A stretch of DNA of 64,000 nt from positions 10,196 to 74,195 of the forward strand of contig JBAMLV010000008.1 in assembly GCA_039793395.1 (NCBI GenBank), in the 5' to 3' direction. Position 1 is the stretch's first letter. Each line of letters starts with the position of its first letter. Shown here piece after piece: positions 5,711 to 49,405 of this stretch. The notes under the pieces were generated by a model, which saw only the letters and a program-made list of their open reading frames with translations, ran no database searches and had not been told where the DNA came from. The translations under genes were made by a program, and so were the position numbers. This DNA is from a bacterium. GTDB taxonomy: Bacteria > Hydrothermota > Tepidihabitantia > Tepidihabitantales > Tepidihabitantaceae.

Positions 5711-5744
5711 TTGCGGTTCGGTGTTGCGACAGTATTATTAATTG
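5711..5744 (+). promoter_or_regulatory. Sigma-70-like promoter, TTGCGG -16- TATTAT, with the -10 ending 6 nt before the ATG at 5745 (leaderless)
   Basis: ttgcgg (5711-5716), 16-nt spacer, tattat (5733-5738), taattg, ATG at 5745. Confidence 0.5.
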
Positions 5745-35049: not shown

Positions 35050-36528
35050 ATGAATATCAACCACCTGGAAAATATTATGCGCCGCGAGCTGGACCGGATG
35101 CTAACGGCTAACTGCAGTTTTGCCGACGCCCGCTTCTATTTAGAAGACCTTACCGAAAGGCTGGTGCTCTACGACGGCAACCTGGAGGTGAACTATCAGC
35201 AGTTCGAGCGGGGCATCGGGGTCCGGGTAATCAAAAGCGGTGCAGTGGGATTTGCCGCCACCGCCGACCTTAATGCCATTCCTGCCTGCTTTCAGCGGGC
35301 ACTGGACAATGCCGAAGCCGCGGCCCAACTGCTCGGTTTTCCCAAGGATATGGGGAATGCCAAACCGATCCGGGGGACTTATCAGCCCCGTTTTGAACGC
35401 GACCCCTTTGCAGTGCCCCTGCCGGAAAAACTGGCCCTACTGAAGCGGGTTGATGACCAACTCCGGGACAACACCGTTGAACACCGAATGGTCTCTGCCC
35501 ATTTTCAGAAACGCCGGATATTTTACTTTAACAGCGAAGGAACCGAAATTGAACGCTGGGTGCTGAACACCTTTGCCAATATGACGGTAATGGCACGCGA
35601 CCGTGAAGGCAAGGCACAGCGCCGGAGTTATGAACTGGACTCGGATGGCACCGGCAGCCGGGGCTTTGAGTGGCTTGCCCGACCGGACGCCTTTTCTATT
35701 CATGCCGAACGGGTGAAAAAGGAACTGAGCGAAATTGTCGCCGCCGAAACCCTGCCGCCGAAGCGCCGGGATGTCATCCTGTTACCCGGCCAGGGCCATC
35801 TCCAGGTCCACGAAACCATCGGCCACCCGCTGGAACTGGACCGGATTCTCGGCTATGAACTTTCCTTTGCCGGCGGCTCCCATGTGAAACCGGAAATGAT
35901 TGGGTCACTGCGTTACGGCAGTGACAAACTGAATGCCAAGGTGATGCTGGTTGAAAATTCACCCGGCACATTTGGCTACGACGACGAAGGCACACCCCAG
36001 CACGAGTACTACCTGATTAAAAACGGCATTCTCGTCAATGTCCTCTGCTGCCGGCTTGACCTCGCCGAAGCCAATGCCAAAGCCGGCAAAACCGTAGTCC
36101 AGACATCCGGGGCATCAGCCCGGGCAGCCGGTTTTTACAAAACACCGATTGACCGGATGACCAATGTCTGCGTGGAATGGGGCAGTGACGGCACCCTGGA
36201 GGACATCATCCGGGCAACCGAAGATGGGGTAATTCTTGATATGCCGGTCTCCTGGTCAATCGGCTCCAACCGGGAACACTTCCATTTCGGCTGCGAAATC
36301 GCCTGGGAGGTCCGGGACGGCAGAATCACCCGGGTCTACAAAAATCCCACCTACCAGGGCCACACGCTTGAGTTCTACCACTCCCTGGATATGGTCGGCG
36401 ACCGCTCAACCTGGCGCCTGTTCCAGGTGGCAAACTGCGGCAAGGGTGAACCGAACCAAATTATGGAGGTCGGGCATGGTGTGCCGGTAATGCGCTTTCG
36501 CAATGTAATTACCGGTGAAGGGAGGTAA
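35050..36528 (+). CDS. tldD: TldD/PmbA-family metalloprotease (TldD-like)
   Basis: AGGAGG Shine-Dalgarno upstream. TldD-like C-terminus (GHGVPVMRFRNV). 492 aa. Confidence 0.75.
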   Translation: MNINHLENIMRRELDRMLTANCSFADARFYLEDLTERLVLYDGNLEVNYQQFERGIGVRVIKSGAVGFAATADLNAIPACFQRALDNAEAAAQLLGFPKDMGNAKPIRGTYQPRFERDPFAVPLPEKLALLKRVDDQLRDNTVEHRMVSAHFQKRRIFYFNSEGTEIERWVLNTFANMTVMARDREGKAQRRSYELDSDGTGSRGFEWLARPDAFSIHAERVKKELSEIVAAETLPPKRRDVILLPGQGHLQVHETIGHPLELDRILGYELSFAGGSHVKPEMIGSLRYGSDKLNAKVMLVENSPGTFGYDDEGTPQHEYYLIKNGILVNVLCCRLDLAEANAKAGKTVVQTSGASARAAGFYKTPIDRMTNVCVEWGSDGTLEDIIRATEDGVILDMPVSWSIGSNREHFHFGCEIAWEVRDGRITRVYKNPTYQGHTLEFYHSLDMVGDRSTWRLFQVANCGKGEPNQIMEVGHGVPVMRFRNVITGEGR

Positions 36529-37909
36529 AATGCTGGAAGATCGGATCCGCAGCCTACTGCTTGAAGCAAGGGATTATGCCCGTAAAAACGGTTTGAACGT
36601 CGAGTTTTCATTTCACCGTGAGCGCTCCAGCCTGATCCGGCTTGGCAACTCGGCAATCGCCCTTTCCACCAGCGAGGAACTCTCCCGGCTTGATGTCACG
36701 GTGCAGGAAGGGCGCCGCGTCGGTTCCTGGACCATCACCGCCGACATCACCAGCCTGGACCAGCTGAAAACAGCACTCAACCGCGCCGCAGAAAACTGCC
36801 GCCACTCGTTTGCGCGGGACTACGACCCGATTTTTGGTCAGGTGCAGGAACCGGTTGACGACCTCACCGGCTTTGACCCGGAGCTGGAGACGCTTTCCCC
36901 GGGTGTCAAGGCGGAACTGTGTGCCCGGGTCATCAACACCCTGAAACCCCGCGGCAACTACGACTTCTCCGGCTCCTGGACCAGCGGCGCCACCGAGATG
37001 TACTACATTACCACCGCCAATGATAACGAAGCCTATCGCAAACTGACCGATGGCCGACTGGTAATTGTCCTGAAGGAACGGTTGAAGAAATGGGAACTGG
37101 CAGTGGAAAAGAGCCAGAAACGGGCAGATGAATTTTCTGCCGATGAGATCATTCAAGAGTTTGAAACCCTGCTTTCGATTTACGAGCAAACTCCGGGCCA
37201 CAAAACCACGCTCGGCAACCAGCGGGTGCTGTTCGGACCCCAGGCGATTGCCCAGCTGGTCATCCTCTCCATCTGGGGCGGATTTTTCGGCCGGAGTTAT
37301 GAAGAAGGCAGGGCATTTACCTCCAAAAACCGGTTCGGCGACAAACTGTTCTCCGACCTGATAACCATCATTGACGACCCCACCAATCCCGATGTCTTCC
37401 AGATGCCCTTTGACTTCAACGGGAAGCGCCGCCGTCCCTTCCCGCTCGTGGAAAAGGGCATCTTCCGTAATGTCTGCTACGACTCCCAGACCGCCGCAAA
37501 ATACCGAAAGAACCCGACCGGCCACGACCTCAACAACTGGGACCTGGTCCTGGCACCGGGCACCGGACCGGCAGAACCTGCCGCCGCGCTGGAACTTGCC
37601 GGCGATGCCCTCTACATCCCTCACCTCCACTATATCCATATGCCCGACCCGACCCGGGGCATCTTCACCGGCTCCTCCCGCTTCAACGCCCTGCTCATCC
37701 GCAATGGCAAACCGGTAGCCCCACTCTTCTCATCTCGGATAACCGATTCCATCCTCAATGTCTTCAATAATGTCATCGCGCTTGCCTCAGCCTCGGTTGC
37801 GCAGAATGAAACCTCAACCTATGAACGGCGGAGCCCGGAAGCCCTCAGCGTTCCCCGCTGGCTCCTCTGTGACCAGGTCCGGATTTCGGATGTAGCCGAC
37901 AGTTTCTGA
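36515..37909 (+). CDS. pmbA: TldD/PmbA-family protein (PmbA/TldE-like partner)
   Basis: Paralogous TldD/PmbA fold. Overlaps the tldD end. Confidence 0.7.
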   Translation: MKGGKMLEDRIRSLLLEARDYARKNGLNVEFSFHRERSSLIRLGNSAIALSTSEELSRLDVTVQEGRRVGSWTITADITSLDQLKTALNRAAENCRHSFARDYDPIFGQVQEPVDDLTGFDPELETLSPGVKAELCARVINTLKPRGNYDFSGSWTSGATEMYYITTANDNEAYRKLTDGRLVIVLKERLKKWELAVEKSQKRADEFSADEIIQEFETLLSIYEQTPGHKTTLGNQRVLFGPQAIAQLVILSIWGGFFGRSYEEGRAFTSKNRFGDKLFSDLITIIDDPTNPDVFQMPFDFNGKRRRPFPLVEKGIFRNVCYDSQTAAKYRKNPTGHDLNNWDLVLAPGTGPAEPAAALELAGDALYIPHLHYIHMPDPTRGIFTGSSRFNALLIRNGKPVAPLFSSRITDSILNVFNNVIALASASVAQNETSTYERRSPEALSVPRWLLCDQVRISDVADSF

Positions 37910-37914
37910 ACGGC

Positions 37915-37950
37915 TTGACTTGGCACCGGGTCTGTTTATTTTATCTTAAT
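37915..37950 (+). promoter_or_regulatory. Sigma-70-like promoter for tRNA-Leu (TTGACT -16/17- TATTTT)
   Basis: ttgact at 37915-37920. tatttt about 37937-37942, 8 nt before the tRNA 5' end. Confidence 0.45.
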
Positions 37951-38034
37951 GCCGAGGTGGCGGAAATGGCAGACGCGCTAGCCTCAGGAGTTAGTGGGGA
38001 AACCCATGGGGGTTCAAATCCCCCCCTCGGCACC
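37951..38034 (+). tRNA. tRNA-Leu (anticodon CAG), encoded CCA
   Basis: Acceptor GCCGAGG/CCTCGGC. U8. Anticodon stem CTAGC/GTTAG with loop CTCAGGA. Long variable arm (TGGG-AAA-CCCA). T-arm GGGGG-TTCAAAT-CCCCC. 3' ACCA. One-nt ambiguity at the ends. Confidence 0.75.
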
Positions 38035-38039
38035 ACCGC

Positions 38040-38229
38040 AACCTAAAATTACCTGCCCGTCATTCGCTTCGTTGCTTGCTCCTCAGCGCCCGCCTTTTCT
38101 GTCATCCCGAGCCTTTCCGGTTCGGTCAATGCGCGCCTCTTTTACTCTTGTGTCATTGCGAGCGAAGCGAAGCAACCCCCCAAAGCGGCAGGGATTGCCA
38201 CGGCTCCTTTAAAGCCGCGCAATGACACG
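38040..38229. repeat. Array of about 4 degenerate or inverted copies of the dispersed palindromic repeat immediately 3' of tRNA-Leu
   Basis: gtcattcgcttcgttgcttgc..., tgtcatcccgagcctttccggttcggtcaatgcgcgc, tgtcattgcgagcgaagcgaagcaacc, gggattgccacggctcctttaaagccgcgcaatgacacg. Generates spurious ORFs 37994..38212 and 38209..38403. Confidence 0.7.
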
Positions 38230-38308
38230 CGGAGAAGTTACCGCGCTCTGCGACAGTGAAAAAGACCTGGTGGCGAACAGGGGGAATGAGTACACTGACA
38301 GCACGCCG

Positions 38309-39025
38309 TCAGATTTTGCCGAGCATCCGCTGCAGTCGCAACCGGAGCACAAGGAAAAATGCCCGCCAGATAATCCGCCGCGACATCTTAGAAACACCGG
38401 CACGCCGTTCGGTGAAAATTATTGGAATTTCTTTAATTCTGCCCCCCTTACGCCAGATGAGAAAATCAATCTCAATCTGAAAGCCGTAACCGTCCTCCCT
38501 GAGCCGGGAAAGGTCCAGCCGCCGAAGCATTTCACACCGGTAAGCCTTGAACCCCGCGGTCAGGTCCCGAACCGGACAGCCGGTCACCTTGCGGGCATAA
38601 AGGCAGGCAAAGTAGGAGAGGAGCAGCCGCTTCATCGGCCAGTTGACAATTGAAATACCGTTAGAATAACGGGAACCGATCACCAGGTCATAGTCCTTGA
38701 GCAGGGAGACCATCTCCGGTATCTTCTCCGGCGGGTGGGAGAAATCGGCATCCATCTCAAAGCAGTAGTCGTAGCCGTGCTCAAGCGCATACTTAAATCC
38801 GAGGACATAGGCGGTGCCGAGCCCAAGCTTCTTCTCCCGGCGCACGAGTTTTACCCGCGGATTTTCCCGGGCAAGCTGCTCAACGATGTCACCGGTGCGA
38901 TCCGGTGAATTGTCATCAATCACCAGAATATCCAGTTCTGGTGACTGGCTGAGCACTACCGGAATAATCTGCTCAATATTACCCGCCTCATTATAGGTGG
39001 GCATTATCACCAGACCCCGGGCCAC
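38309..39025 (-). CDS. GT2 polyprenol/dolichol-phosphate mannosyltransferase (Dpm1-like)
   Basis: MPTYNEAGNIEQII...LVIDDNSPDRTGDIV...GLGTAYVLGF...EMDADFSHPP...LVIGSRY. Confidence 0.88.
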   Translation of the reverse strand: MARGLVIMPTYNEAGNIEQIIPVVLSQSPELDILVIDDNSPDRTGDIVEQLARENPRVKLVRREKKLGLGTAYVLGFKYALEHGYDYCFEMDADFSHPPEKIPEMVSLLKDYDLVIGSRYSNGISIVNWPMKRLLLSYFACLYARKVTGCPVRDLTAGFKAYRCEMLRRLDLSRLREDGYGFQIEIDFLIWRKGGRIKEIPIIFTERRAGVSKMSRRIIWRAFFLVLRLRLQRMLGKI

Positions 39026-39130
39026 GATGTTATAATAAGAATATATCTTCCCCTGTCAATCACGCTATCTTCAGCCAATTCACTCATTCCTTGGGTGTGC
39101 CGGCCGGAAAATCCCGACACTCAACCCCGC

Positions 39131-39556
39131 TCACGGCTGCGCGGCTGAATACCGGTTGATCCCCCGAATCATCAGCTTCATCCGGGAAATCTGCCCGGCA
39201 GGCCTCGGAGCCACAAACTTTACCCATTGCTCCTGATTTGCCTCCAGATTAACCTGGTGCCAGCCCCAGGGGTCGTCAAGCTGAACCCCGTTCTGGTCAT
39301 AAAACAGCATCTTCACCTTACCACCAATCGGCATATGCCAGCCGTTCTTTAAAAGCACACTGACCAGGAGCGCGCCGTCACTCTCCTCCTCCTTCACATC
39401 CAGCACCCGGATATCACCCGCCAGCACCGGATTATTGATCACCCAGCGCCGGCTTCCTGTCTCCCGGTTAATCCAGAGTGAGTTAATCGTCTGGGCACAC
39501 ACCGTTAGCAGCGATGCCGCCAGCACCAAACTTAACCACCGATTTATCCTTTTCAT
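39131..39556 (-). CDS. Secreted small protein, YcfL/DUF1425-like
   Basis: Signal peptide MKRINRWLSLVLAASLLTVCA. ...LLVSVLLKNGWHMPIGGKVKMLFYDQNGVQLDDPWGWHQV resembles the YcfL pattern. Confidence 0.45.
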   Translation of the reverse strand: MKRINRWLSLVLAASLLTVCAQTINSLWINRETGSRRWVINNPVLAGDIRVLDVKEEESDGALLVSVLLKNGWHMPIGGKVKMLFYDQNGVQLDDPWGWHQVNLEANQEQWVKFVAPRPAGQISRMKLMIRGINRYSAAQP

Positions 39557-39571
39557 CTAACACCTCCTTTT

Positions 39572-40750
39572 TTAATAGCCAAAAAATTCCTCTGCCAGAC
39601 CGGCGACAATGAAAAATGTCCGCTTACCGTTTGTCCGTCCGCGGCACATTCCGGCTCGGGGCTCGGCACCGGTCAGCGGATAATCACAGTAACCCTTCAT
39701 TTCTCCGGCACGGTTGTAAAACACCAGCCGGACCCGTTCTGTTTCCGCGGGCAGGCGCAGTCGAGCAAAGGAAAAGTTCAGGGGCGCATAACCCCAGGCA
39801 CGCACATCCCGGTTCTCGGACTCCTTGCCCAGGGTGATATCGGCAATGTCGTCGGCAAGTTCTTGGCCCTTGCCTGGAACCGCCCGGTCCAGCAGCAGCG
39901 CACCTAAAATCCGCAGCCCGAGCCGTGCCGCCTTTGCCCCGGCCTCCTGTGCCGCCTTCCTTGCCGCCTCTGCCCGACTGAGCCGCACCGGAAAACTGTC
40001 CATCAGCGCCGGCAGAACCGCAACCACCTGTTCCGTGTCCACCCGCACCTCGGTCCTGCCGATAACATCCGCGCTCTGATGCTCAACCTGAACAATCAGC
40101 TCCATCACGCCGGTATCGCCACTCTCCCCTTGCTCAACCTGCTGTATCAACTGCCGGCTAAGACCGGCAACCTCCGAACCGGAATCTGCCATTGCCGCCA
40201 GCGCCCGGTATTCAATCAGCGCATCATCCGGCTTGCCCAGCTGCTCATAAATCAAACCGAGATAGAAGTTGACAACCGGTAGTTGGGAGGCATCCTGGTC
40301 ATACTGGCGCAGCTTCTTGAACTCAACCAGCGCCGCTTCCGGATTATCCTGCATCAGATAGCATCGACCAAGATAGAAATGGACCAGTTCCCGTTCCCGT
40401 TTGCGCAGTTTGTAAACGGTGCGTGAGTCCACTACCAGCCAGTCGTAGATTTTCGCCGCCTCCGGCCTTTCCCCGGCATCTACTTTATAGGCGGCAAAGA
40501 ATGCCCGGCGCGCCGCATCTAAATTCAAATCGTAAAAAAGGCAGATTCCGTAACTCAGCAGCGAAAGGATATAGGAGCGATCCCGTTCCCGGAACTTCTT
40601 CTCCACCACCTGCCGGAACCTTTCGGCTGCCGGCCGGTAGACCAGCGCGGTAAAATAGCGGGGCTTTCCCGCCGGTTTGATTGCCGGTGCCGGTGGCAGA
40701 CAGCCGGCAATCAGCACCACCAGCAGCCCGACCGCCCGGCAAAGGCGCAT
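39572..40750 (-). CDS. TPR-containing lipoprotein
   Basis: Lipobox LIAGC. TPR-like helical repeats in the N-terminal half (HFYLGRCYLMQDNPEAALVEFKKL..., FYLGLIYEQLGKPDDALIEY). C-terminal beta-rich domain. Confidence 0.55.
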   Translation of the reverse strand: MRLCRAVGLLVVLIAGCLPPAPAIKPAGKPRYFTALVYRPAAERFRQVVEKKFRERDRSYILSLLSYGICLFYDLNLDAARRAFFAAYKVDAGERPEAAKIYDWLVVDSRTVYKLRKRERELVHFYLGRCYLMQDNPEAALVEFKKLRQYDQDASQLPVVNFYLGLIYEQLGKPDDALIEYRALAAMADSGSEVAGLSRQLIQQVEQGESGDTGVMELIVQVEHQSADVIGRTEVRVDTEQVVAVLPALMDSFPVRLSRAEAARKAAQEAGAKAARLGLRILGALLLDRAVPGKGQELADDIADITLGKESENRDVRAWGYAPLNFSFARLRLPAETERVRLVFYNRAGEMKGYCDYPLTGAEPRAGMCRGRTNGKRTFFIVAGLAEEFFGY

Positions 40751-40767
40751 TTTAACTATTCAGCCGC

Positions 40768-41346
40768 CTATTCGTACCAGGCTTTGGTGCTTTTCTTTTT
40801 CAACTCCTGCTCATCCGCCCAGACAATCTCCGAGGTCCGCACATCCACCAGCCGCATCGTCAGTTTGTAATAGGCAAGGGTGGTTGCCCCTCTGGTCTTC
40901 TCAATGCTCATCACATCACCGGTTAAAAAGTAGTCGGCACCAATCAGACTGCCCAATTTCACCGCCCCCTCAACATCAATCCGCTGTGTCTCCTGCAGGG
41001 CAATCTCCTTTGCCTGCTGCTTCAACAGCTCCCGGTCTACCATCCGGAATTTCCCTAATTTCAGCAACGCAACCATAATCTTCTCGGCAATCCCCTCGGT
41101 ATCAATGTGCTGGGAGGTCCGGTTACCGATGGCAAGAAACGCCAGCACCGGCCTGCCGGTATCGGACCGGGGTGGCAGTTTGAACTCGGCAAGGGACATT
41201 ACCATCTTCTCGGCGAGCAGTTTCATATCGGTATCCGAATAGGTGTAGTCCCATTCGGTTACCTCATCTGGCCGGACATAATGGGATGTTGAACAGCCCG
41301 GCATCAGCACCAGTCCCAGGGTGGCAATGTAATTCAACAGTTTCAT
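40768..41346 (-). CDS. LpoB/CsgG-like (TolB-N-like fold) lipoprotein, paralog 1
   Basis: Lipobox LMPGCS. VLAFLAIGNRTS...KIMVALLKLGKFRMVDRELLKQQAKEIALQETQRIDVEGAVKLGSLIGADYFLTGDV matches the CsgG/LpoB family consensus. Confidence 0.55.
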   Translation of the reverse strand: MKLLNYIATLGLVLMPGCSTSHYVRPDEVTEWDYTYSDTDMKLLAEKMVMSLAEFKLPPRSDTGRPVLAFLAIGNRTSQHIDTEGIAEKIMVALLKLGKFRMVDRELLKQQAKEIALQETQRIDVEGAVKLGSLIGADYFLTGDVMSIEKTRGATTLAYYKLTMRLVDVRTSEIVWADEQELKKKSTKAWYE

Positions 41347-41882
41347 TTCTGCTCCTTTTGTTTTTGCTCGGGCATCTTTAAACTTTCAATCATAAAACGG
41401 ACAAACTCCTGGGCGATTGCTCCCGCGCCAGTCCCGGAATCCGGCTCATAAAGCGCCCAGACCAGTACCTTATCCTCAGCCAGATCAACCAGCGAAAGCG
41501 AGACCGCCCGGATTCCCTCGCTGGTACAGGGGTGTTGGCCCCGGCTGCAGACCTGGCACCGGGCAATCACATTGCCGGTCAGCAGACAGTTGGCACCGAT
41601 TTTTCGGGCAAACTCCGGTGGTTTAAGCGGCGCAGACCGCTCAGTGCCAATCTCCTTTTCTCCGGGATAAACCACCCGGATACTCTCGGCAAGCACATTG
41701 ATTGTCAGGGCATCCTCAAGCAGTCGGGTGGTCGGGCGATCAATCCCGGAAAGGACCACCGCCACCGAGCCGATAATTGGCAGTTTACCCGGTGCGTCCG
41801 GATGCACAAAACTGGCAACCGGCTCCGGCTTTGCCGCAAAGAGCAGCGTTATGACCGCGCAAAGAAGCGAGTTCATCACCAC
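41343..41882 (-). CDS. LpoB/CsgG-like periplasmic protein, paralog 2
   Basis: Signal peptide. LPIIGSVAVVLSGIDRP...ARKIGANCLLTGNVIA...VSLSLVDLAEDKVLVWA parallels paralog 1. Start overlaps the next gene. Confidence 0.45.
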   Translation of the reverse strand: MVMNSLLCAVITLLFAAKPEPVASFVHPDAPGKLPIIGSVAVVLSGIDRPTTRLLEDALTINVLAESIRVVYPGEKEIGTERSAPLKPPEFARKIGANCLLTGNVIARCQVCSRGQHPCTSEGIRAVSLSLVDLAEDKVLVWALYEPDSGTGAGAIAQEFVRFMIESLKMPEQKQKEQK

Positions 41883-41891
41883 CTCCTGTTT

Positions 41892-43046
41892 TTACTCAAT
41901 AAATTTTATCTCAATCCGGTTCCCGCTCCAGCCAATAATTTCAAACCGGACCACAAACCCGGGCTTACCCAGCCCGGCCAGGATTTCCGAACTCGGGGTT
42001 TCGGACACCACCTCCAGCACCGCCTCATCACCGCTCAGTTCCCGGCTGATGACCTGCTTTATCCCCCGCACCCGGGTGCGTAACTCCGAGCCGAGCCCTG
42101 CCACCTTTTGATAACTGGCATTCCGGCAGAAAATCTGGGTGATGTTTTCCCGGCGCTGCCACCGCTGGAGAATTGAGCTGAGCAGCGCATCCGCACTGCT
42201 CTCAACACAACCCTTCAGCGCCTCATCCCGGCTGAACGGCACCACCTGCATTTGGGACGAACCACCAAGCACCTCGCCGGTCAGCAGGTCAACCGCCCGC
42301 AAATTCAGACTCACCCTGTAAAAATCGGCCTCGGCCTGCTGATAAGGACCTTTTTTCCGCTCCTGCGCCATCGCCAGTTGTCCGAAAATCCCGATTTCCG
42401 CCCCGGTCCGCAAACCGGCACGCAGTGCTGCCGCGGTATCACCGGCAATCAGCCGCTGCCGCTGAACCGCATCAATATTCCTCTGCACCGTCCGCCGGTC
42501 CACCACCGGAAACCCCTTATCGGTAAAAATGGTCAGCAGCGCAGTTTCCGCACTCTCCACCTCGCCTGCCGGCGCATCCGACTCCAGCACAACCATCAAC
42601 CGCGGCCGGCCCTGCTCACTCACCAGCAACCCGATTGCTGCCAGGTCATCCTCAATCCGGTCGGTCTTCACCATTGCCCGCACCACCACCCGGTAGAGTT
42701 CCCCTTCCCGGCTTTCGGTTATCACCCGGTATGAGGACACATAACCAGTTGCCTGGGAATAAATCCGGTCGTCAAGCAGTTGAAAATTCTGCACCCGGGT
42801 TTCAGTATTGATAAAACTGCCAACCCCCTGCTCCACCGCCTTGCGCAGCGCATCCCGGAGCGCCTGGTCCCGGGCAATGTCCGGACTGCCGGTAAGGGCA
42901 GCAACCCCTTCGGCAAGCACCTCGGTTCCCTCACCCCCGCTCAACACCACCTCGGTCGGTTGTGGTGCCGAACCTGGAGCCTGATAACCCGGATGATAAC
43001 AGCCGGCAAACACCAGCCCCGCCACCACCAGAACCCGCCACCGCAT
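41892..43046 (-). CDS. Lipoprotein with two LPP20-like (FlgP-type) domains
   Basis: Lipobox VFAGCY. ARDQALRDALRKAVEQGVGSFINTETRVQNFQLLDDRIYSQATGYVSSYRVITESREGELYRVVVRAMV (LPP20 pattern). Second similar half. Confidence 0.5.
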   Translation of the reverse strand: MRWRVLVVAGLVFAGCYHPGYQAPGSAPQPTEVVLSGGEGTEVLAEGVAALTGSPDIARDQALRDALRKAVEQGVGSFINTETRVQNFQLLDDRIYSQATGYVSSYRVITESREGELYRVVVRAMVKTDRIEDDLAAIGLLVSEQGRPRLMVVLESDAPAGEVESAETALLTIFTDKGFPVVDRRTVQRNIDAVQRQRLIAGDTAAALRAGLRTGAEIGIFGQLAMAQERKKGPYQQAEADFYRVSLNLRAVDLLTGEVLGGSSQMQVVPFSRDEALKGCVESSADALLSSILQRWQRRENITQIFCRNASYQKVAGLGSELRTRVRGIKQVISRELSGDEAVLEVVSETPSSEILAGLGKPGFVVRFEIIGWSGNRIEIKFIE

Positions 43047-43055
43047 CCTGCGCTC

Positions 43056-44018
43056 CTATAACAGCAGCCGGACAATCAGCCGGCCCGCTTCATAAAGAAA
43101 CTTTGCACCATCCTTGAGCCATTTCAGTCGCTCCGCATCCTGCCTGGAAATCACAATATCACTGCCGAGCCGGCCCCGGACCGCCTTGATTTTAACCACC
43201 AGCGGCACCCGGCTGAACTCCGGCCGGTTAAGAATCTCATCCAGCTGGCGGATGTAATTCAGCATCGCCTGACCGCGCCCACCGGTGTAACGGTAAAGCT
43301 CCCTCGTATCCAGCAGCAGATTACCCTGCTCATCATAGATTTTGGGAAACAGCGCCGGCTTCAATCCGGTCTCACCCGCATCCAGCACCAGCCCGGAATA
43401 CTGACGGAAAAACTCCTGCACCGCCGGCGATACCTGAGCGCTCACCGCTTCCGCCTTGGATTCCAGTGCCGGTAGCAGCGCATCGGCAACACTCTGCGGT
43501 CCATCCAGACTCACCTCCAGTTCCACCTCCACCACCCCGGCTGCCGAATCGTATCTTGCCGGACCAGCCGGTCGTGCCCCCTTGACCACCCCTTCAACCC
43601 GGGTGTAAATTACATCATAACTGGTGACGAAATTCTCAACTCTGGTATCGGCATCAACCCGCACCCCCTTTATGATTTCCAGCAGATTCCGCTGCGCCAC
43701 CACCACTGCCGCCCGCTCCGCCATCACCCTTGCCCGGGACAGATTTTCATCTGCCGGGTCCAGCACCCCGGCACCGCGTGCCCGCACCACCCGTGCGCCC
43801 CAGTCAATCACTCCCCCGGGCACCGGCTCAACAATTTCACCCGGGGCGGCAATCGGACCGACCGGCATCGGTGCGGTCCAGCCCGAATCCCGGGGTAGGC
43901 GCGGCATCACCACCGGTTCGCTTACCGGACCTGATGCCGCCTTCACCCCGGCATTGGAACTGACGCACCCGACCGCCAGCACCAGCAACCCGAAACAAAC
44001 CAGTTCCCGCCACTTCAC
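43056..44018 (-). CDS. Lipoprotein with an LPP20-like domain
   Basis: Lipobox LAVGCV. ARVMAERAAVVVAQRNLLEIIKGVRVDADTRVENFVTSYDVIYTRVEGVVKGARP. Confidence 0.5.
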   Translation of the reverse strand: MKWRELVCFGLLVLAVGCVSSNAGVKAASGPVSEPVVMPRLPRDSGWTAPMPVGPIAAPGEIVEPVPGGVIDWGARVVRARGAGVLDPADENLSRARVMAERAAVVVAQRNLLEIIKGVRVDADTRVENFVTSYDVIYTRVEGVVKGARPAGPARYDSAAGVVEVELEVSLDGPQSVADALLPALESKAEAVSAQVSPAVQEFFRQYSGLVLDAGETGLKPALFPKIYDEQGNLLLDTRELYRYTGGRGQAMLNYIRQLDEILNRPEFSRVPLVVKIKAVRGRLGSDIVISRQDAERLKWLKDGAKFLYEAGRLIVRLLL

Positions 44019-44590
44019 TTGACACCTCCCTTTTCCAGCAGCGGCAGCAGTGCGGTCTGAATTGCCATCCGCAACGCATCCTCCGCCCCTTCAAAACTTG
44101 AACCCTGTCCCGCTGCCGAATAAAGCACCGCCCCATTCTCCACCCCGACAATCCGGACCATAACTTCAGCCTCCCGCTGCTCCGGCGAATCGGTGAAAAA
44201 CGGGTCGTGCTTCACCCTGCCAATCTTGATGCTCATAATCGCACTGGCACCCAGCAGTTTACCCAGCCGCACCGCACTCTGCGGATCAACCACCCCCGAA
44301 TAACCGAACTCCTGCTCCTTCAGCACCTCGTCAACCCGGGAACGGTCAACCACGACCAGGGTTGGAATTTTCATTAATTGCAACTCGGCAAACTCCCGCA
44401 GCGCCCCCTCATCACCGGTGTCCGAATTTCCGCCTGTGGGCGGCAGCACCGCAATCCGCCAGGTCCGGCTCAAATCAAACTCCGGCGCGATTGAAAACGG
44501 CTCTACCGCCTTGACCATTGCCGGGGTGCAGTTCACAATCAGCGCCCCGACGGCAATCAGCCCAAAAACAGCAATTCGCATAAGTCCCAT
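44015..44590 (-). CDS. LpoB/CsgG-like lipoprotein, paralog 3 (first gene of the cluster)
   Basis: Lipobox-like LIVNCT. RIAVLPPTGGNSDTGDEGALREFAELQLMKIPTLVVVDRSRVDEVLKEQEFGYSGVVDPQSAVRLGKLLGASAIMSIKIG. Confidence 0.55.
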   Translation of the reverse strand: MGLMRIAVFGLIAVGALIVNCTPAMVKAVEPFSIAPEFDLSRTWRIAVLPPTGGNSDTGDEGALREFAELQLMKIPTLVVVDRSRVDEVLKEQEFGYSGVVDPQSAVRLGKLLGASAIMSIKIGRVKHDPFFTDSPEQREAEVMVRIVGVENGAVLYSAAGQGSSFEGAEDALRMAIQTALLPLLEKGGVK

Positions 44591-45045
44591 AATCAGATTA
44601 TCCTGCTCATTTCTCTCCTGTCAACCCTGAACACCGCCCATAACCCGCCCCGAATCAAAACCCGGAACCGGGCTCAATACCCGATTGGCTATCCCTGACC
44701 CCGCGGTTAACCGGTTCCCACCGGCTTTGGTCCTGACCGCGCCCGTCAGCGCCATCTTCCCGCCCAGCCCGGAAACCATCATCCAGACACTCTCAACCAC
44801 CCCGCCCGAAACCGCAGATGATACCATCCCGGTGACCATCCCCGGGACTGTCCCCCCCCACCCCGGCTTATTGCCGGGTTAATTAATTAACTAATTGAAA
44901 TTACAATAGTTATATCATCAACCCCAAAATCGGGTGTTAAAAAATGCACCGCCGGTATCGAACTGATATCCAAAACCCGGAAGCAAATAGATTTACCGGT
45001 AAAAACCGCCGCCTGCCGGTGGCATCCCGGCAGACGATTCTGCTT

Positions 45046-45083
45046 GACAACTAAAAGACCGCTGATTATATTAAAATGGAGTT
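45046..45083 (+). promoter_or_regulatory. Sigma-70-like promoter for tRNA-Gly (TTGACA -17- TATATT)
   Basis: ttgacaactaaaagaccgctgattatatt, then aaaatggagtt, then the tRNA. Confidence 0.5.
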
Positions 45084-45154
45084 GCGGCCATAGCTCAGGG
45101 GTAGAGCCCCGGCTTCCCAAGCCGGTTACACGGGTTCGATTCCCGTTGGCCGCT
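45084..45154 (+). tRNA. tRNA-Gly (anticodon CCC), no encoded CCA
   Basis: Acceptor GCGGCCA/TGGCCGC. D-arm GCTC-AGGGGTA-GAGC. Anticodon stem CCGGC/GCCGG with loop TTCCCAA. T-arm ACGGG-TTCGATT-CCCGT. Discriminator T. Confidence 0.72.
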
Positions 45155-45173
45155 TTATATATTAAAAGCACAT

Positions 45174-45587
45174 ATGCCCTGGTTTGGTTATATCCATCCA
45201 CTGCTGGCAATCTTCACCCTCGGCTACGGTGTGACCATCGGTCAGCTGAGCCTTTCCCGGCTTGGCGACTGGGACTTTCCGCTGCGCCGCCTGCGTAAGC
45301 GCACGCTGGTCTATTTCCTGCTGACAGTTGTCAATGTTGGCATCGGCCTGCTCGTCAATACCCTGCTTGCCTCCCGGAGCCAGGGGGTGAAACTGCTCGC
45401 CCATCTGCCGCTTGCCATTGCCGTTTCGGTTCTTGCCCTGCTTGCTCTGCTCGTCACCTATGGCAGAAGCAGAAAACCCGGGGAACTGGCACCAAGTTTG
45501 CGCTGGTATCCGATGCTCATTGTTGCCAGTCTGGCGCTGATTATGACCATGGGCTTTACTGCCCTGCTCAAGGTGCTGAAAATCTGA
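45174..45587 (+). CDS. Small integral membrane protein (hypothetical)
   Basis: Four predicted TM helices (LLAIFTLGYGV..., VYFLLTVVNVGIGLLV..., LAIAVSVLALLALLV..., MLIVASLALIMTMGF). Confidence 0.45.
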   Translation: MPWFGYIHPLLAIFTLGYGVTIGQLSLSRLGDWDFPLRRLRKRTLVYFLLTVVNVGIGLLVNTLLASRSQGVKLLAHLPLAIAVSVLALLALLVTYGRSRKPGELAPSLRWYPMLIVASLALIMTMGFTALLKVLKI

Positions 45588-45691
45588 AACCCGCAGTCAG
45601 GCTCCGGCAAATCTATCATCGGCTGAAAAAATGCCACCGGCTGCGTTCCGCACCGGTCAGCCAGCTGCCTGATTATGACCCCTGGTCAATT

Positions 45692-46315
45692 TTGCTCGGC
45701 GCGGTCCTTTCCACCCGGACCCGTGACGAAACAACCGCTCAGGCGTTCCGCCGGCTTACCGCCGTGGCACCAACACCAGCCGCACTGGCAGGGCTGAAAA
45801 CCGGAGAAATCAGGCGCCTGATTTATCCGGTCGGCTTTTACCGGACAAAGGCAAGACTGCTCAAAAAACTGGCACAACAACTGCTCACCCATCATCACGG
45901 AAGCGTGCCCCGGACCCGTGCCGAACTGCTGCACCTCCCCGGGGTTGGACCAAAGGTTGCCAGCATTGTGCTCAGCCAGGCATTCGGCCTGCCGGTAGTT
46001 GCGGTTGATACCCATGTCCACCGACTCAGCAACCGGCTTGGTCTGGTCCGCACCACCCGACCGGAACAAACCGAGCGCCGGCTGAACGCCATTGTGCCCG
46101 AAGAACTCAAGGCCGAACTCAACCCCCTGCTGGTAGCACTTGGCCAGACAATCTGCCTGCCGCGCAACCCGCACTGTCCGGACTGCCCGCTGAAAAACCT
46201 CTGTCCCCAGCGCAGGGTCAGGGCTGCCAGAGATGGGCAAAAATCACCCGGTATGCCGGCTGATAAACCCGGCGGTAAATTTCAGAATGGACCGGCACTC
46301 CCCATTTGTCCCTGA
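45692..46315 (+). CDS. nth: Endonuclease III (HhH-GPD, 4Fe-4S)
   Basis: LLHLPGVGPKVASIVLSQAFG (HhH-GPD), VDTHVHRLSNRLGLV, Cys cluster CLPRNPHCPDCPLKNLC. The frame is open upstream with no ATG/GTG, so the annotated TTG start is uncertain. The 3' ~35 codons overlap a convergent ORF. Confidence 0.75.
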   Translation: MLGAVLSTRTRDETTAQAFRRLTAVAPTPAALAGLKTGEIRRLIYPVGFYRTKARLLKKLAQQLLTHHHGSVPRTRAELLHLPGVGPKVASIVLSQAFGLPVVAVDTHVHRLSNRLGLVRTTRPEQTERRLNAIVPEELKAELNPLLVALGQTICLPRNPHCPDCPLKNLCPQRRVRAARDGQKSPGMPADKPGGKFQNGPALPICP

Positions 46316-46754
46316 TGCGCCGGGCAAGTGCTGATGCCTGACCTGGCAGGTTCTTTTGACACCAGTTAACGGCCGAGGCAACTCTTGGTCCGAGTTGCTC
46401 CGGTGCGGGCACAAAATCCCGGCCGGTCCGAACCAGCGCCATAATCAGCCGCTCCTGCCTGACTGGTGAACCTGCTACTGCCCCGAGATTCACCCGGACC
46501 AGCAATCCCTCCGGGTCAACCGGTTCCAGCTCCTCAACCGCAAAACAACCGGACCGTTGCCGGAGTTCCTCGTTCAACTGCCGGCGGAGCACATCAATTT
46601 CTGTTCCCAGATGGCCGGGACCGAACACCCCCTGATAAATCAGTTTATAGATATCATCAGCCTGCAGCAGTGGATAGTGCCTTAAATGCCAGTCGAGAAT
46701 CTCATTCAGTTCCATCAACGCCGGACGGTAAAAATATGAACTCCAGCCCCTCAA
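46218..46754 (-). CDS. Hypothetical protein (178 aa)
   Basis: Non-repetitive composition. Convergent overlap with the nth 3' end. Confidence 0.35.
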   Translation of the reverse strand: MRGWSSYFYRPALMELNEILDWHLRHYPLLQADDIYKLIYQGVFGPGHLGTEIDVLRRQLNEELRQRSGCFAVEELEPVDPEGLLVRVNLGAVAGSPVRQERLIMALVRTGRDFVPAPEQLGPRVASAVNWCQKNLPGQASALARRIRDKWGVPVHSEIYRRVYQPAYRVIFAHLWQP

Positions 46755-48136: not shown

Positions 48137-49405
48137 GTGCGGATTATCGCCGACTTACACATTCATTCCCGGTTCTCCCGGGCAACCAGTTCCGATATGG
48201 ACATTCCGGCAATCGCCCGGGCGGCAAAACAGAAAGGCATTAAACTGGTTGCGACCGGTGACTTCACCCATCCCGAATACTTTGCCTCACTAAAAAAACA
48301 CCTCCGGGATGCAGGTAATGGCCTTTACACCTTTGACGATGTCCACTTTATTGTCAACACCGAAGTAAACAATATCTACTCGGCTGCTGGCAGACTGCGC
48401 CGGATCCATAACCTGATTTTCGTCCCGAGTCTGGAAAGCGCGGCCGGGGTCTCGGGTCTGTTGAGCAAGTACGGTAAACTTGATGCCGACGGCCGGCCCA
48501 GTGTCAGCATCTCCTGTTATGAAATGCTCGCCCGGATTATGGAGATTGAACCCAGAGCATTTATCGTGCCGGCACACATCTGGACGCCGTGGTTTTCCCT
48601 TTACGGCTCCCATTCCGGCTTTGACTCCTTTGCCGAGTGCTTCGGCGACCTGGCGGATGAGGTTTTTGCCGTGGAAACCGGCCTCTCCTCAGACCCGCCG
48701 ATGAACTGGCGCATTTCCGAACTGGACCACAAAACCCTCATCTCCAATTCCGACGCCCATTCTCCGAGCCGGTTGGGCCGCGAAGCAAATGTGTTTGACT
48801 GTGAACTGAATTACGACACCATCCGGGAGGTGCTGAAAACCGGGGACCGGAAACGGTTTTTGTTTACGATTGAATTTTTCCCCGAGGAGGGCAAATACCA
48901 CTATGATGGCCATCGGAGTTGTGGGGTCCGCGTTTCGCCAGCCGAATCAATCCTGTCCGGTGACATCTGTCCGGTGTGTGGACGAAAACTGACCATCGGG
49001 GTACTGCACCGGGTGGAACAGCTGGCAGACCGGAAAGTTGATAATCTGCCCCGCGACCGGATTCCCTTCCGCCATCTGGTGCCACTGGAAGAGATTATCG
49101 CCGAAGCGCTGAAGTTGGGCCGGGAGACCGCGGGTGTTGCCCGGAAGTATGAGGAACTGGTAACCGGTCTGGCACCGGAGTTTGAAATTCTCTTGGATGT
49201 GCCGATCAGTGAAATTGCCCGCTATGATGAACTAATTGCGCAAGGGGTGGAGCGGATGCGCCGGGGTGAAATTATAGTTGAACCCGGGTTTGACGGCGTA
49301 TTCGGGACGGTCCAGGTACTGCCCGGAGCAGGGATTGCTTCGGCGCCTTCAGAGCCTCGGAATGACGAGGGGAAAAATGGTAGGCAGTTGAAACTTTTTG
49401 GCTGA
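48137..49405 (+). CDS. PHP-domain nuclease resembling endonuclease Q (EndoQ)
   Basis: MRIIADLHIHSRFSRATS (PHP His motif), about 420 aa, zinc-finger-like CPVCGRKLTIGVLHRVEQLAD. The C-terminal 25 aa (GAGIASAPSEPRNDEG...) are encoded by a dispersed-repeat copy. Confidence 0.55.
   Translation: MRIIADLHIHSRFSRATSSDMDIPAIARAAKQKGIKLVATGDFTHPEYFASLKKHLRDAGNGLYTFDDVHFIVNTEVNNIYSAAGRLRRIHNLIFVPSLESAAGVSGLLSKYGKLDADGRPSVSISCYEMLARIMEIEPRAFIVPAHIWTPWFSLYGSHSGFDSFAECFGDLADEVFAVETGLSSDPPMNWRISELDHKTLISNSDAHSPSRLGREANVFDCELNYDTIREVLKTGDRKRFLFTIEFFPEEGKYHYDGHRSCGVRVSPAESILSGDICPVCGRKLTIGVLHRVEQLADRKVDNLPRDRIPFRHLVPLEEIIAEALKLGRETAGVARKYEELVTGLAPEFEILLDVPISEIARYDELIAQGVERMRRGEIIVEPGFDGVFGTVQVLPGAGIASAPSEPRNDEGKNGRQLKLFG
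49331..49370. repeat. Dispersed palindromic repeat copy inside the 3' end of the EndoQ-like gene
   Basis: GGGATTGCTTCGGCGCCTTCAGAGCCTCGGAATGACGAGG. Confidence 0.7.

What the first reader, a model, noticed from the sequence alone, without database searches (positions are those of the whole stretch)
39131..44590. Co-directional cluster of seven periplasmic lipoprotein genes (3x LpoB/CsgG-like, 2x LPP20-like, YcfL-like, TPR lipoprotein)
Seven minus-strand genes are tightly packed and several overlap. All have signal peptides or lipoboxes. Three are paralogs with the CsgG/LpoB (TolB-N-like) signature (...VDR..L..LKEQEF..SG.VD...AV.LGKLLGA.Y...G). Two carry LPP20/FlgP-type domains. One resembles YcfL (DUF1425), which sits next to lpoB in E. 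coli. One is a TPR lipoprotein. Combinations like this occur in flagellar outer-membrane rings (FlgO/P/T), the GNA1162-type operons and PBP-activator loci, but this seven-gene arrangement matches none that I know. It looks like an uncharacterised outer-membrane or periplasmic assembly. The G-rich 5' tract and the tRNA-Gly and tRNA-Leu genes flank the locus.
Basis: partly seen in the sequence, partly recalled or inferred. Interest (0 to 1): 0.7.

Follow-up and report, generated by a model that had tools for sequence, protein, structure and literature searches.

The report
Two joined envelope lipoprotein gene modules
The seven genes are real, but they are two separately inherited sets of cell-envelope proteins that happen to sit side by side here: relatives of the proteins that build rings around the flagellar motor, in bacteria reported to have no flagella, and a set built around a relative of a known cell-wall-synthesis activator.

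Summary
Seven minus-strand ORFs (39131-44590) have gaps of -4 to 17 nt. Six carry lipobox-like motifs and one (D) has a plain signal peptide.

The window comes from a candidate division WOR-3 genome assembled from a metagenome (MAG). The cluster is not one conserved seven-gene system.

- **Module 1 (A-B-C, 41892-44590).** It is conserved in this order in 47 of 80 related genome loci from WOR-3 and Fermentibacterota.
  - A is a short CsgG/LpoB-superfamily lipoprotein.
  - B has a FlgP-type domain, including the segment that forms the ring-building beta-hairpin in FlgP, plus a domain like D2 of Treponema Tp0624.
  - C is a full-length structural homologue of the Vibrio H-ring protein FlgT.
  - Two genome papers report Fermentibacterota as lacking flagella.
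- **Module 2 (D-E-F-G, 39131-41882).**
  - E is LpoB-like, F is a COG3014-like TPR lipoprotein and G is YcfL/DUF1425. D is an orphan secreted protein.
  - The module follows A-B-C only in the closest relatives and stands alone elsewhere.
  - It resembles E. coli ycfL-lpoB and Campylobacter cj0089-cj0091.

My inference is an outer-membrane-anchored periplasmic scaffold next to a cell-wall or envelope maintenance unit. No function was tested. I rate it a new variant of known kinds, of moderate interest.

The parts
44015..44590 (-). A: short (191 aa) outer-membrane lipoprotein of the CsgG/LpoB (TolB-N-like) superfamily; first gene of module 1
   Evidence: Pfam CsgG scores 27.7 bits against a cutoff of 20.8, but covers only profile positions 53-94 of 210. 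Among 25 family members, 25 match CsgG, 24 match LpoB and none matches FlgO. hhalign against the E family gives 96-97.5% probability. Cys21 is invariant. The family profile has no hit to solved-structure sequences.
43056..44018 (-). B: lipoprotein with an N-terminal FlgP/LPP20-type SHS2 domain, including the segment that forms the ring-building beta-hairpin in FlgP, and a C-terminal domain like D2 of Tp0624
   Evidence: The window protein has no Pfam hit, and 4 of 31 homologues match LPP20. The family profile hits C. jejuni FlgP 9hmf_C at 4.6e-17, Vibrio FlgP 8z5n_2 at 3e-8, and Tp0624 5jir residues 116-261 at 4e-7. The helix and hairpin segment of FlgP aligns without gaps. The AF2 model has pLDDT 72. 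Its top Foldseek hit is Tp0624 at E 6e-6, followed by Tip-alpha, FlgP and Lpp20. Cys18 is invariant.
41892..43046 (-). C: lipoprotein, full-length three-domain FlgT-like protein (FlgT_N SHS2 domain, CsgG/LpoB-like middle domain, C-terminal alpha/beta domain)
   Evidence: Pfam FlgT_N at 1.9e-11. The AF2 model has pLDDT 77. The top Foldseek hits are FlgT in the Vibrio LPHT ring (8z5n_0, E 3.5e-13, 388 columns) and the FlgT crystal structure (3w1e, E 3.5e-12, 397 columns). The middle domain also matches CsgG, GNA1162, PelC, LpoB and LptE. The N-terminal domains of B and C are homologous, hhalign 97.7%. Residues 143-265 resemble E.
41343..41882 (-). D: secreted (non-lipoprotein) orphan protein with three invariant cysteines; first gene of module 2
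   Evidence: It has a signal peptide but no lipobox, and none of 26 homologues has one. Cys109, Cys112 and Cys119 are invariant. It has no Pfam or NCBIfam hit. Only 10 representatives are found among 1.84 billion proteins. It always lies directly upstream of the LpoB-like gene. An LpoB-like fold is unproven: hhalign gives 0.5-60%.
40768..41346 (-). E: LpoB-family outer-membrane lipoprotein
   Evidence: Pfam LpoB at 4e-34, full length. TIGR02722 scores 115.3 against a cutoff of 110.55. It hits the E. coli LpoB structures 4q6z and 2mii. Relatives are 86-91% identical.
39572..40750 (-). F: TPR lipoprotein, a distant relative of proteins that NCBI names 'COG3014 family'
   Evidence: Pfam TPR_2. 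There are 48 close homologues, all from WOR-3, plus one protein named COG3014 family at E 2.4e-5. phmmer against that protein gives 4.5e-14. COG3014-like genes lie next to LpoB-like genes in many metagenome contigs.
39131..39556 (-). G: YcfL/DUF1425 lipoprotein
   Evidence: Pfam DUF1425 scores 44 bits against a cutoff of 28.3. It has a lipobox, LTVC. It follows F in every D-E-F-G locus whose contig extends that far. In E. coli, ycfL lies directly beside lpoB.
44597..44624 (-). sigma-70-like promoter match directly upstream of A
   Evidence: TTGACA, a 16-nt spacer, then GATAAT: 11 of 12 positions match, ending 7 nt before A's ATG. This is a consensus match only.
44621..44880 (-). G-rich tract upstream of A; it belongs to the locus only by position
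   Evidence: G is 41% over 300 nt. It has no Rfam match. The tract is not G-rich in 14 relatives.

Best explanation
The seven genes are probably transcribed together in this WOR-3 bacterium. They consist of two independent envelope modules placed side by side.

**Module 1 (A-B-C).** This is a triad of outer-membrane lipoproteins whose folds match those of the flagellar H-ring and basal-disk proteins.
- C is a full-length FlgT-like protein.
- B is FlgP-like and has the segment that forms the ring-building beta-hairpin in FlgP. It also has a domain like D2 of Tp0624.
- A is a small protein of the CsgG/LpoB superfamily, which also holds FlgO.
- Inferred mechanism: the three oligomerise under the outer membrane, tethered by their N-terminal lipids, into a ring, disk or lattice. 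This would be a non-flagellar counterpart of the Vibrio FlgT/FlgP/FlgO rings. It would stiffen the envelope, space it, or surround some other envelope machine.

**Module 2 (D-E-F-G).**
- It comprises an LpoB-family lipoprotein, a COG3014-like TPR lipoprotein and a YcfL/DUF1425 lipoprotein. A lineage-specific secreted protein with conserved cysteines comes first.
- It is the WOR-3 version of the widespread pairing of LpoB-like and TPR lipoproteins.
- Inferred role: control of peptidoglycan synthesis or remodelling from the outer-membrane side.

**Shown versus inferred.** Shown: gene structure, family and fold assignments, and synteny. Inferred: oligomerisation, localisation, any physical link between the two modules, and every function.
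For: **Two modules.**
- A-B-C is consecutive in 47 of 80 loci found with C. The full A-to-G order occurs in only 6.
- D-E-F-G stands alone on other contigs of MAGs that carry A-B-C elsewhere.
- D-E-F-G also occurs with more than 4.3 kb of upstream sequence lacking A-B-C.

**Module 1 identities.**
- C's best Foldseek hits are FlgT, at E 3.5e-13 and 3.5e-12 over the full length, and it matches Pfam FlgT_N.
- The B family profile hits FlgP structures at 4.6e-17 and 3e-8, gap-free over the helix and hairpin segment. B's fold matches Tp0624 D1-D2.
- A belongs to the CsgG/LpoB superfamily.
- The lipobox Cys is conserved in all three.

**Ring-building precedent (literature).**
- Vibrio FlgT, FlgP and FlgO form concentric rings at the outer membrane. 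FlgP and FlgO are lipidated (bioRxiv 10.64898/2025.12.02.691832).
- Ring formation in the FlgP family tracks the hairpin insert (PMC12222027).

**Non-flagellar setting.**
- Hyd24-12/Fermentibacteria genomes encode no flagellar proteins (PMC5030696).
- Ca. Sabulitectum silens, which is locus L038 and carries A-B-C, is described as non-motile with incomplete flagellar pathways (10.1101/146886).
- No flagellar gene was found among the genes checked in the window and flanks. These were the Pfam-annotated genes within 10 kb of C on each side and ten larger window ORFs.

**Module 2.**
- E passes the LpoB models.
- The pairing of LpoB-like and COG3014-like genes is widespread.
- It parallels E. coli ycfL-lpoB, the cj0089-cj0091 operon (PMC3100323) and hp0018 with the LpoB homologue hp1457 (PMC11394524).
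Against: - No experiment or complex prediction supports oligomerisation.
- AF2 places the hairpin segments of B and C at low confidence (pLDDT below 50 at B 122-131 and C 82-100).
- Global TM-scores to FlgT are low (0.30-0.38), although the alignment spans the full length.
- A matches no FlgO model and no solved structure by sequence.
- I could not check this MAG, or WOR-3 in general, for flagellar genes. Absence of flagella rests on the literature for the sister phylum only.
- E lacks the long proline-rich linker of E. coli LpoB, so PBP1B-type activation may not apply.
- The two modules may still cooperate. The seven-gene order recurs in this clade, and LPP20-type genes flank LpoB-COG3014 pairs in other lineages.
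Confidence: 0.6

Rival explanations
1. All seven proteins form one outer-membrane and periplasmic machine. The separation seen in other genomes would be operon splitting of a single functional system.
For: - The genes are tightly packed and co-directional, with two 4-nt overlaps.
- The same seven-gene order occurs in 6 genome loci and about 10 metagenome contigs.
- MAGs with A-B-C on one contig carry D-E-F-G on another, so both sets co-occur in the same genome.
- LPP20-type genes flank LpoB-COG3014 pairs in other lineages: L086, L133, L136, L138, L139, L142 and L145.
- H. pylori lpp20 (hp1456) is numbered next to hp1457, which is an LpoB homologue (PMC11394524). Their adjacency is from my own knowledge.
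Against: - 41 of 47 A-B-C loci lack D-E-F-G next to them. This includes all Fermentibacterota loci, where no F, G or D homologue was seen in the flanks.
- Close F homologues were found only in WOR-3, whereas A-B-C spans two phyla.
- Most WOR-3 genomes have a different gene (c3) after C.
Confidence: 0.2
2. A-B-C are genuine flagellar H-ring or basal-disk components of a flagellated WOR-3 bacterium.
For: - NCBI names C homologues 'flagellar assembly protein T N-terminal domain-containing protein'.
- FlgT and FlgP structures are the best structural and profile matches.
Against: - No flagellar gene was found among the window and flank genes checked.
- The triad is conserved in Fermentibacterota, reported as lacking flagellar genes or as non-motile.
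- B is twice the size of FlgP and has an extra domain.
- C has a lipobox. From my own knowledge, Vibrio FlgT is not described as a lipoprotein.
- No MotX or MotY partner was seen.
Confidence: 0.07
3. A, D and E are three paralogous activators of peptidoglycan synthases, and the whole cluster is a cell-wall growth regulon. B and C would act as accessory spacers.
For: - A and E are homologous, and E passes the LpoB equivalog model.
- E. coli LpoB activates PBP1B (established knowledge; cited in PMC11394524).
Against: - D's relationship to LpoB is unproven.
- A travels with B and C, not with E.
- E lacks the long disordered linker seen in the E. coli LpoB sequence.
- No PBP gene is adjacent.
Confidence: 0.08
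4. A is a CsgG-type secretion channel, and the cluster exports a fibre or polymer in the manner of curli or Pel.
For: - A scores above the Pfam CsgG cutoff.
- C's middle domain resembles CsgG and PelC.
- A TPR lipoprotein and a GT2 glycosyltransferase are nearby.
Against: - A is only 191 aa, and its CsgG match covers 42 of 210 profile positions, which leaves no room for the transmembrane hairpins.
- No curli or Pel subunit genes are present.
- GT2 is absent from the stand-alone modules.
Confidence: 0.05

Closest known systems
Vibrio flagellar H-ring proteins FlgT, FlgP and FlgO, and the Campylobacter basal-disk protein FlgP
   Same: - C shares the three-domain FlgT fold.
- B shares the FlgP SHS2 domain, including the hairpin segment.
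- A belongs to the CsgG/LpoB superfamily. The same stretch of one protein (L068, residues 421-533) matches both the CsgG and FlgO Pfam models, which ties FlgO to that superfamily.
- B and A carry lipid anchors, as FlgP and FlgO do.
- The three genes are clustered.
   Different: - The triad occurs in phyla reported as lacking flagella, with no flagellar genes among those checked nearby.
- C has a lipobox.
- B has an added domain like D2 of Tp0624 and is 320 aa, against about 140-170 aa for FlgP.
- A matches no FlgO model.
Treponema pallidum Tp0624 (PDB 5JIR), N-terminal D1-D2 tandem unit
   Same: Tp0624 is the best structural match to B, at E 6e-6 over 281 columns. At sequence level, B 178-314 matches Tp0624 116-261 at 4e-7.
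   Different: B lacks the C-terminal OmpA-like domain of Tp0624. B has a lipobox-like motif, whereas Tp0624 is described as having a non-canonical signal peptide (section heading in PMC5104382). The function of Tp0624 is itself unknown.
E. coli ycfL-lpoB, and the Campylobacter jejuni cj0089-cj0090-cj0091 / Helicobacter hp0018-hp1457 lipoprotein sets
   Same: An LpoB-family lipoprotein (E) sits beside a TPR lipoprotein (F) and a small lipoprotein (G, DUF1425) on one strand.
   Different: - The gene order differs.
- The extra secreted protein D is specific to WOR-3.
- E has no long proline-rich linker.
- I did not test F directly against Cj0089 or HP0018. I tested it only against a protein that NCBI names COG3014 family.
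GNA1162 (DUF799) / DUF4810 / CsgG-like lipoprotein operons
   Same: These are clusters of small lipoproteins of the same fold superfamily. 3 of 25 A homologues weakly match the GNA1162-like model, and C's middle domain resembles GNA1162.
   Different: None of the seven window proteins matches DUF799 or DUF4810. These operons have no FlgT- or FlgP-type components.

Membership tests
LpoB (penicillin-binding protein activator), for E | Globular LpoB domain (Pfam PF13036, NCBIfam TIGR02722) | tested here: met
   PF13036 at 4e-34, covering profile positions 1-146 of 147. TIGR02722 scores 115.3 bits against a cutoff of 110.55. E also hits the LpoB structures 4q6z and 2mii.
LpoB (penicillin-binding protein activator), for E | Outer-membrane lipoprotein signal (lipobox Cys) | tested here: met
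   The motif is MPGC, and Cys18 is invariant.
LpoB (penicillin-binding protein activator), for E | Long disordered, proline-rich linker that lets the protein span the periplasm, as in E. coli | tested here: not met
   Only about 22 residues separate Cys18 from the start of the domain at residue 40, and they are invariant rather than low-complexity. In the E. coli LpoB sequence read, a proline-rich stretch of about 50 residues follows the lipobox Cys.
LpoB (penicillin-binding protein activator), for E | Binds and activates a class A PBP through its UB2H domain | not testable with these tools
   No whole-genome access and no complex prediction.
FlgT (flagellar H-ring), for C | FlgT_N domain and the three-domain FlgT fold | tested here: met
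   PF16548 at 1.9e-11, 44.8 bits against a cutoff of 28.8. The top Foldseek hits are 8z5n_0 and 3w1e over 388-397 columns, at E 3.5e-13 and 3.5e-12.
FlgT (flagellar H-ring), for C | Encoded in a flagellated organism, with flagellar and MotX/MotY partners | tested here: not met
   No flagellar gene was found among the genes checked: the Pfam-annotated genes within 10 kb of C on each side and ten larger window ORFs. The triad is conserved in Fermentibacterota, reported as lacking flagellar genes. This MAG's full gene content was not checked.
FlgT (flagellar H-ring), for C | Forms a ring around the LP-rings | not testable with these tools
   No multimer prediction or imaging.
FlgP / LPP20 family, for B | SHS2-type LPP20 domain, with the beta-hairpin insert typical of ring-forming members | tested here: met
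   The family profile hits FlgP 9hmf_C at 4.6e-17 and 8z5n_2 at 3e-8, aligning without gaps across the helix and hairpin segment. The definition of the insert comes from PMC12222027.
FlgP / LPP20 family, for B | Passes the Pfam LPP20 (PF02169) model | tested here: not met
   The window protein has no Pfam hit. Only 4 of 31 homologues match LPP20 at E up to 0.01.
FlgP / LPP20 family, for B | Small single-domain lipoprotein (about 140-170 aa) | tested here: not met
   B is 320 aa and has a second domain like D2 of Tp0624.
CsgG (curli secretion channel), for A | Full-length CsgG domain, including the transmembrane hairpins | tested here: not met
   The score of 27.7 bits is above the cutoff, but only profile positions 53-94 of 210 are matched, and the protein is 191 aa.
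FlgO, for A | Matches the FlgO model PF17680 | tested here: not met
   None of 25 family members matches at E up to 0.01. The relationship holds only at the level of the fold superfamily.
YcfL / DUF1425, for G | DUF1425 domain, a lipobox, and a position next to an lpoB-family gene | tested here: met
   PF07233 scores 44 bits against a cutoff of 28.3. The lipobox is LTVC. G lies one gene away from E. In E. coli, ycfL and lpoB are adjacent.
COG3014-type TPR lipoprotein (the Cj0089/HP0018 kind), for F | Homology to a COG3014-family protein, and adjacency to an LpoB homologue | tested here: met
   F hits P0289, which NCBI names 'COG3014 family protein', at E 2.4e-5 against 5.8 billion sequences. 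phmmer gives 4.5e-14. Such genes are adjacent to LpoB-like genes in many contigs.
COG3014-type TPR lipoprotein (the Cj0089/HP0018 kind), for F | Direct homology to Cj0089 or HP0018 | not tested
The link is by architecture and by the literature.

The most novel reading that the evidence does not exclude
A-B-C encodes a free-standing, outer-membrane-tethered periplasmic ring or disk in bacteria that never build flagella. FlgT and FlgP-type ring builders would then be an ancient envelope scaffold, perhaps encircling pili, a secretion system or cell-wall synthesis sites. Flagellar motors would have recruited it later for their H-ring and basal disk. The larger clusters seen in Nitrospinota, Nitrospirota and Calditrichota would be elaborations of the same scaffold that also bind the cell wall. 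Those clusters add a TPR+SLH protein, an NHL-CsgG/FlgO protein and FecR- and GNA1162-like proteins.
Probability: 0.25. Interest if true: 0.8.

Novelty: new variant of a known kind. Interest (0 to 1): 0.55.

Why it matters
Disks and rings around flagellar motors, built from FlgP, FlgT and FlgO, are a textbook case of added parts that raise torque. Where those parts came from is an open question. A conserved triad with the same folds, in phyla reported to lack flagella, is a concrete candidate for the non-flagellar relative or ancestor, and it can be tested by imaging or by expressing the proteins.

The analysis also gives a first functional frame to genes annotated only as 'hypothetical' or 'FlgT N-terminal domain-containing' in WOR-3 and Fermentibacterota.

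It further shows that the pairing of an LpoB-like lipoprotein with a TPR lipoprotein extends well beyond Proteobacteria and Campylobacterota.

Tried and rejected
- **RNA element in the G-rich leader.** An Rfam scan of 37500-46500 found only the two tRNAs. The tract is not conserved in relatives. Dropped as part of the system.
- **D as a third LpoB/CsgG paralogue.**
  - hhalign gave 0.5% probability against E. With larger alignments it gave 9.5% against E, 2% against A and 60% against A and E combined.
  - A search of 1.84 billion representatives found only 10 relatives, with no bridge to a known family.
  - Left as inconclusive. Both structure-prediction slots had gone to B and C.
- **A as FlgO.** There was no PF17680 match and no sequence hit to a solved structure. 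Kept only as a superfamily-level resemblance.
- **F related to the TPR+SLH proteins (c6) of the distant clusters.** phmmer found no match. Rejected.
- **GT2 glycosyltransferase (38309-39025) as part of the system.** It has its own promoter-like site and is absent from the stand-alone modules. Rejected.
- **Ubiquitin hits to C's C-terminal region.** No single stretch was significant. Treated as spurious.
- **HIT-family gene at 49405-49908.** It recalls hinT-ycfL-lpoB in E. coli, but it lies 5 kb away on the other strand. Treated as coincidence.
- **Prior description of a non-flagellar FlgT/FlgP/FlgO-like system.** Literature searches found none.

Full report
**Observation.** The window holds seven consecutive minus-strand ORFs: A 44015-44590, B 43056-44018, C 41892-43046, D 41343-41882, E 40768-41346, F 39572-40750 and G 39131-39556. 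The gaps between them are -4, 9, 9, -4, 17 and 15 nt. tRNA-Leu (37951-38035) and tRNA-Gly (45084-45154) flank them.

The exact protein C sequence is encoded in NCBI assembly GCA_049700775.1, and public gene callers predict the same seven genes there. Homologues are labelled candidate division WOR-3.

Six proteins have lipobox-like motifs. D has a signal peptide without a lipobox, and none of its 26 homologues has one. The lipobox cysteine is conserved in the A, B, C and E families.

**Family and fold assignments.**
- **E** is a clear member of the LpoB family. Pfam gives 4e-34 over the full length, and TIGR02722 scores 115.3 against a cutoff of 110.55.
- **G** matches DUF1425/YcfL (44 bits against a cutoff of 28.3), and **F** has TPR repeats.
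- **A** scores above the CsgG cutoff, but over only 42 of 210 profile positions. All 25 family members match CsgG and 24 match LpoB. A and E are homologous by profile comparison, at 96-97.5% probability.
- **C** has a FlgT_N domain at 1.9e-11. An AF2 model with pLDDT 77 has FlgT as its two best PDB matches over the full length: 8z5n_0 at E 3.5e-13 and 3w1e at E 3.5e-12. Its middle domain also resembles CsgG, GNA1162, PelC, LpoB and LptE.
- **B** has no Pfam hit. Its family profile matches C. jejuni FlgP at 4.6e-17 and Vibrio FlgP at 3e-8, without gaps across the helix and the beta-hairpin segment. Its C-terminal half matches domain D2 of Treponema pallidum Tp0624 at 4e-7. The AF2 model of B (pLDDT 72) has Tp0624 as its best structural match, followed by Tip-alpha, FlgP and Lpp20. 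The N-terminal domains of B and C are homologous, at 97.7%.
- **D** has no family hit, three invariant cysteines and only 10 relatives among 1.84 billion representatives. Its similarity to the LpoB/CsgG fold is at best 60% by hhalign.

**Synteny shows two modules.** I scanned one genome per species with an alignment of C homologues. This found 286 relatives, and 80 loci were kept.

A-B-C is consecutive in 47 of those loci, from WOR-3 and Fermentibacterota (Aegiribacteria, Sabulitectum, Fermentibacteraceae). D-E-F-G follows in only 6, which are the closest relatives. Most other WOR-3 genomes carry an unrelated lipoprotein of about 260 aa (c3) after C.

F homologues led to stand-alone D-E-F-G units in MAGs whose A-B-C lies on another contig. 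L085 pairs with L021, and L087 pairs with L016.

A metagenome scan with the E family found D-E-F-G both with A-B-C upstream (L088-L091, L094-L096, L098-L100) and without it. L092, L097, L104 and L107 each have more than 4.3 kb of upstream sequence with no A-B-C.

The same scan showed that the pairing of an LpoB-like gene with a COG3014-like TPR gene is widespread. In one subfamily the pair is flanked by LPP20-type genes: L133, L136, L138, L139, L142 and L145, and L086.

**Distant relatives of module 1.** Nitrospinota, Nitrospirota, Calditrichota and Desulfobacterota have larger clusters. These combine a longer CsgG-like lipoprotein, a B-like LPP20 protein, a TPR+SLH protein, an NHL beta-propeller fused to a CsgG/FlgO-like domain, a FlgT_N protein, a FecR-like protein and a GNA1162-like protein. 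So the A-B-C triad is the compact form of a wider, undescribed family of envelope clusters.

**Comparison with known systems.**
- In Vibrio cholerae, 26 FlgT, 58 FlgP and 58 FlgO subunits form concentric rings at the outer membrane. FlgP and FlgO are lipid-anchored.
- In Campylobacter, FlgP builds the basal disk. Ring formation in the wider family correlates with a beta-hairpin insert, and that segment is present in B and C.
- Fermentibacteria (Hyd24-12) genomes were reported to encode no flagellar proteins.
- Ca. Sabulitectum silens, whose contig is locus L038 and carries A-B-C, was described as non-motile.
- I found no flagellar gene among the genes checked. These were the Pfam-annotated genes within 10 kb of C on each side and ten larger window ORFs. 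The context instead looks typical of the FCB group, with a C25 peptidase carrying a FlgD_ig tail and a TonB-dependent receptor.
- I could not survey the whole MAG.
- Module 2 parallels E. coli hinT-ycfL-lpoB, the C. jejuni cj0089-cj0090-cj0091 lipoprotein operon, and Helicobacter hp0018 beside the LpoB homologue hp1457.

**Interpretation.** Module 1 most likely builds a lipid-anchored oligomeric scaffold under the outer membrane, a non-flagellar counterpart of the H-ring. Module 2 most likely acts on peptidoglycan synthesis or remodelling from the outer-membrane side.

Both functions are inferred from homology. The oligomeric state, the location and any link between the two modules are untested.

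E differs from E. coli LpoB in lacking the long proline-rich linker, so its mode of action may differ. The recurring association of LPP20-type and LpoB-type genes keeps open a functional link between the two modules, which is the main rival explanation.

**Novelty.** Literature searches found no description of a non-flagellar FlgT/FlgP/FlgO-like triad. Public annotation calls C 'FlgT N-terminal domain-containing protein' and B 'hypothetical protein'.

I rate module 1 a new variant of a known kind of ring-building envelope protein, and module 2 a new member of a known gene neighbourhood. Interest is moderate: the evolutionary implication is attractive, but it rests on inference.

Noticed in passing
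window 44621-44880 (- strand): A G-rich tract lies upstream of A, with 41% G over 300 nt. It overlaps a 72-aa Gly-rich ORF on the minus strand and a 65-aa Pro-rich ORF on the plus strand. It has no Rfam match and is not G-rich in 14 relatives, so it is specific to this lineage and unexplained.
   Followed up: partly
window 44597-44624 (- strand): A near-consensus sigma-70-type promoter (TTGACA, 16 nt, GATAAT) ends 7 nt before A's ATG. This would imply a leaderless mRNA or use of the Met4 start that one gene caller chose.
   Followed up: no
window 40768-41346: The LpoB-like protein E is 86-91% identical among relatives whose neighbouring proteins are only 49-80% identical. That is an unusually strong constraint for a small lipoprotein.
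   Followed up: no
window 22152-27494 (- strand): A 1780-aa single ORF fuses a Ser/Thr protein kinase, AAA_16, TPR, GAF, a sigma-54 activator domain and HTH_8.
   Followed up: no
window 17459-20869 (+) and 5742-8978 (+): The first is a C25 (gingipain-type) peptidase with propeptide and a C-terminal FlgD_ig domain. The second is a 1078-aa ORF with no Pfam match at all.
   Followed up: no
window 35050-37909; loci L028, L030, L031, L038, L041, L044: A PmbA/TldD pair lies near the cluster in the window. A similar pair lies directly upstream of A, on the opposite strand, in several Fermentibacterota loci. This neighbourhood is retained across two phyla.
   Followed up: no
loci L010-L024 (for example L010:9195-9974): Most WOR-3 genomes have a lipoprotein of about 260 aa with no Pfam match directly after C, in the position that D-E-F-G occupies in the window.
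   Followed up: partly
loci L064, L068, L070, L072, L079, L082, L083: Larger clusters in Nitrospinota, Nitrospirota, Calditrichota and Desulfobacterota include a TPR+SLH protein, an NHL propeller fused to a CsgG/FlgO-like domain, and FecR- and GNA1162-like proteins around the B- and C-like genes.
   Followed up: partly
loci L086, L133, L136, L138, L139, L142, L145: A four-gene arrangement of LPP20-like, LpoB-like, COG3014-like and LPP20-like genes recurs in other lineages. L086 comes from a Thiohalomonadaceae MAG.
   Followed up: partly
window 41343-41882: D has three invariant cysteines (C109, C112, C119) in an RCxxC...C pattern. This suggests a disulfide or a metal site in a periplasmic protein.
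   Followed up: no
window 49405-49908 (+): A HIT-family gene lies about 5 kb from the cluster. In E. coli, hinT directly precedes ycfL-lpoB. Probably coincidence.
   Followed up: no
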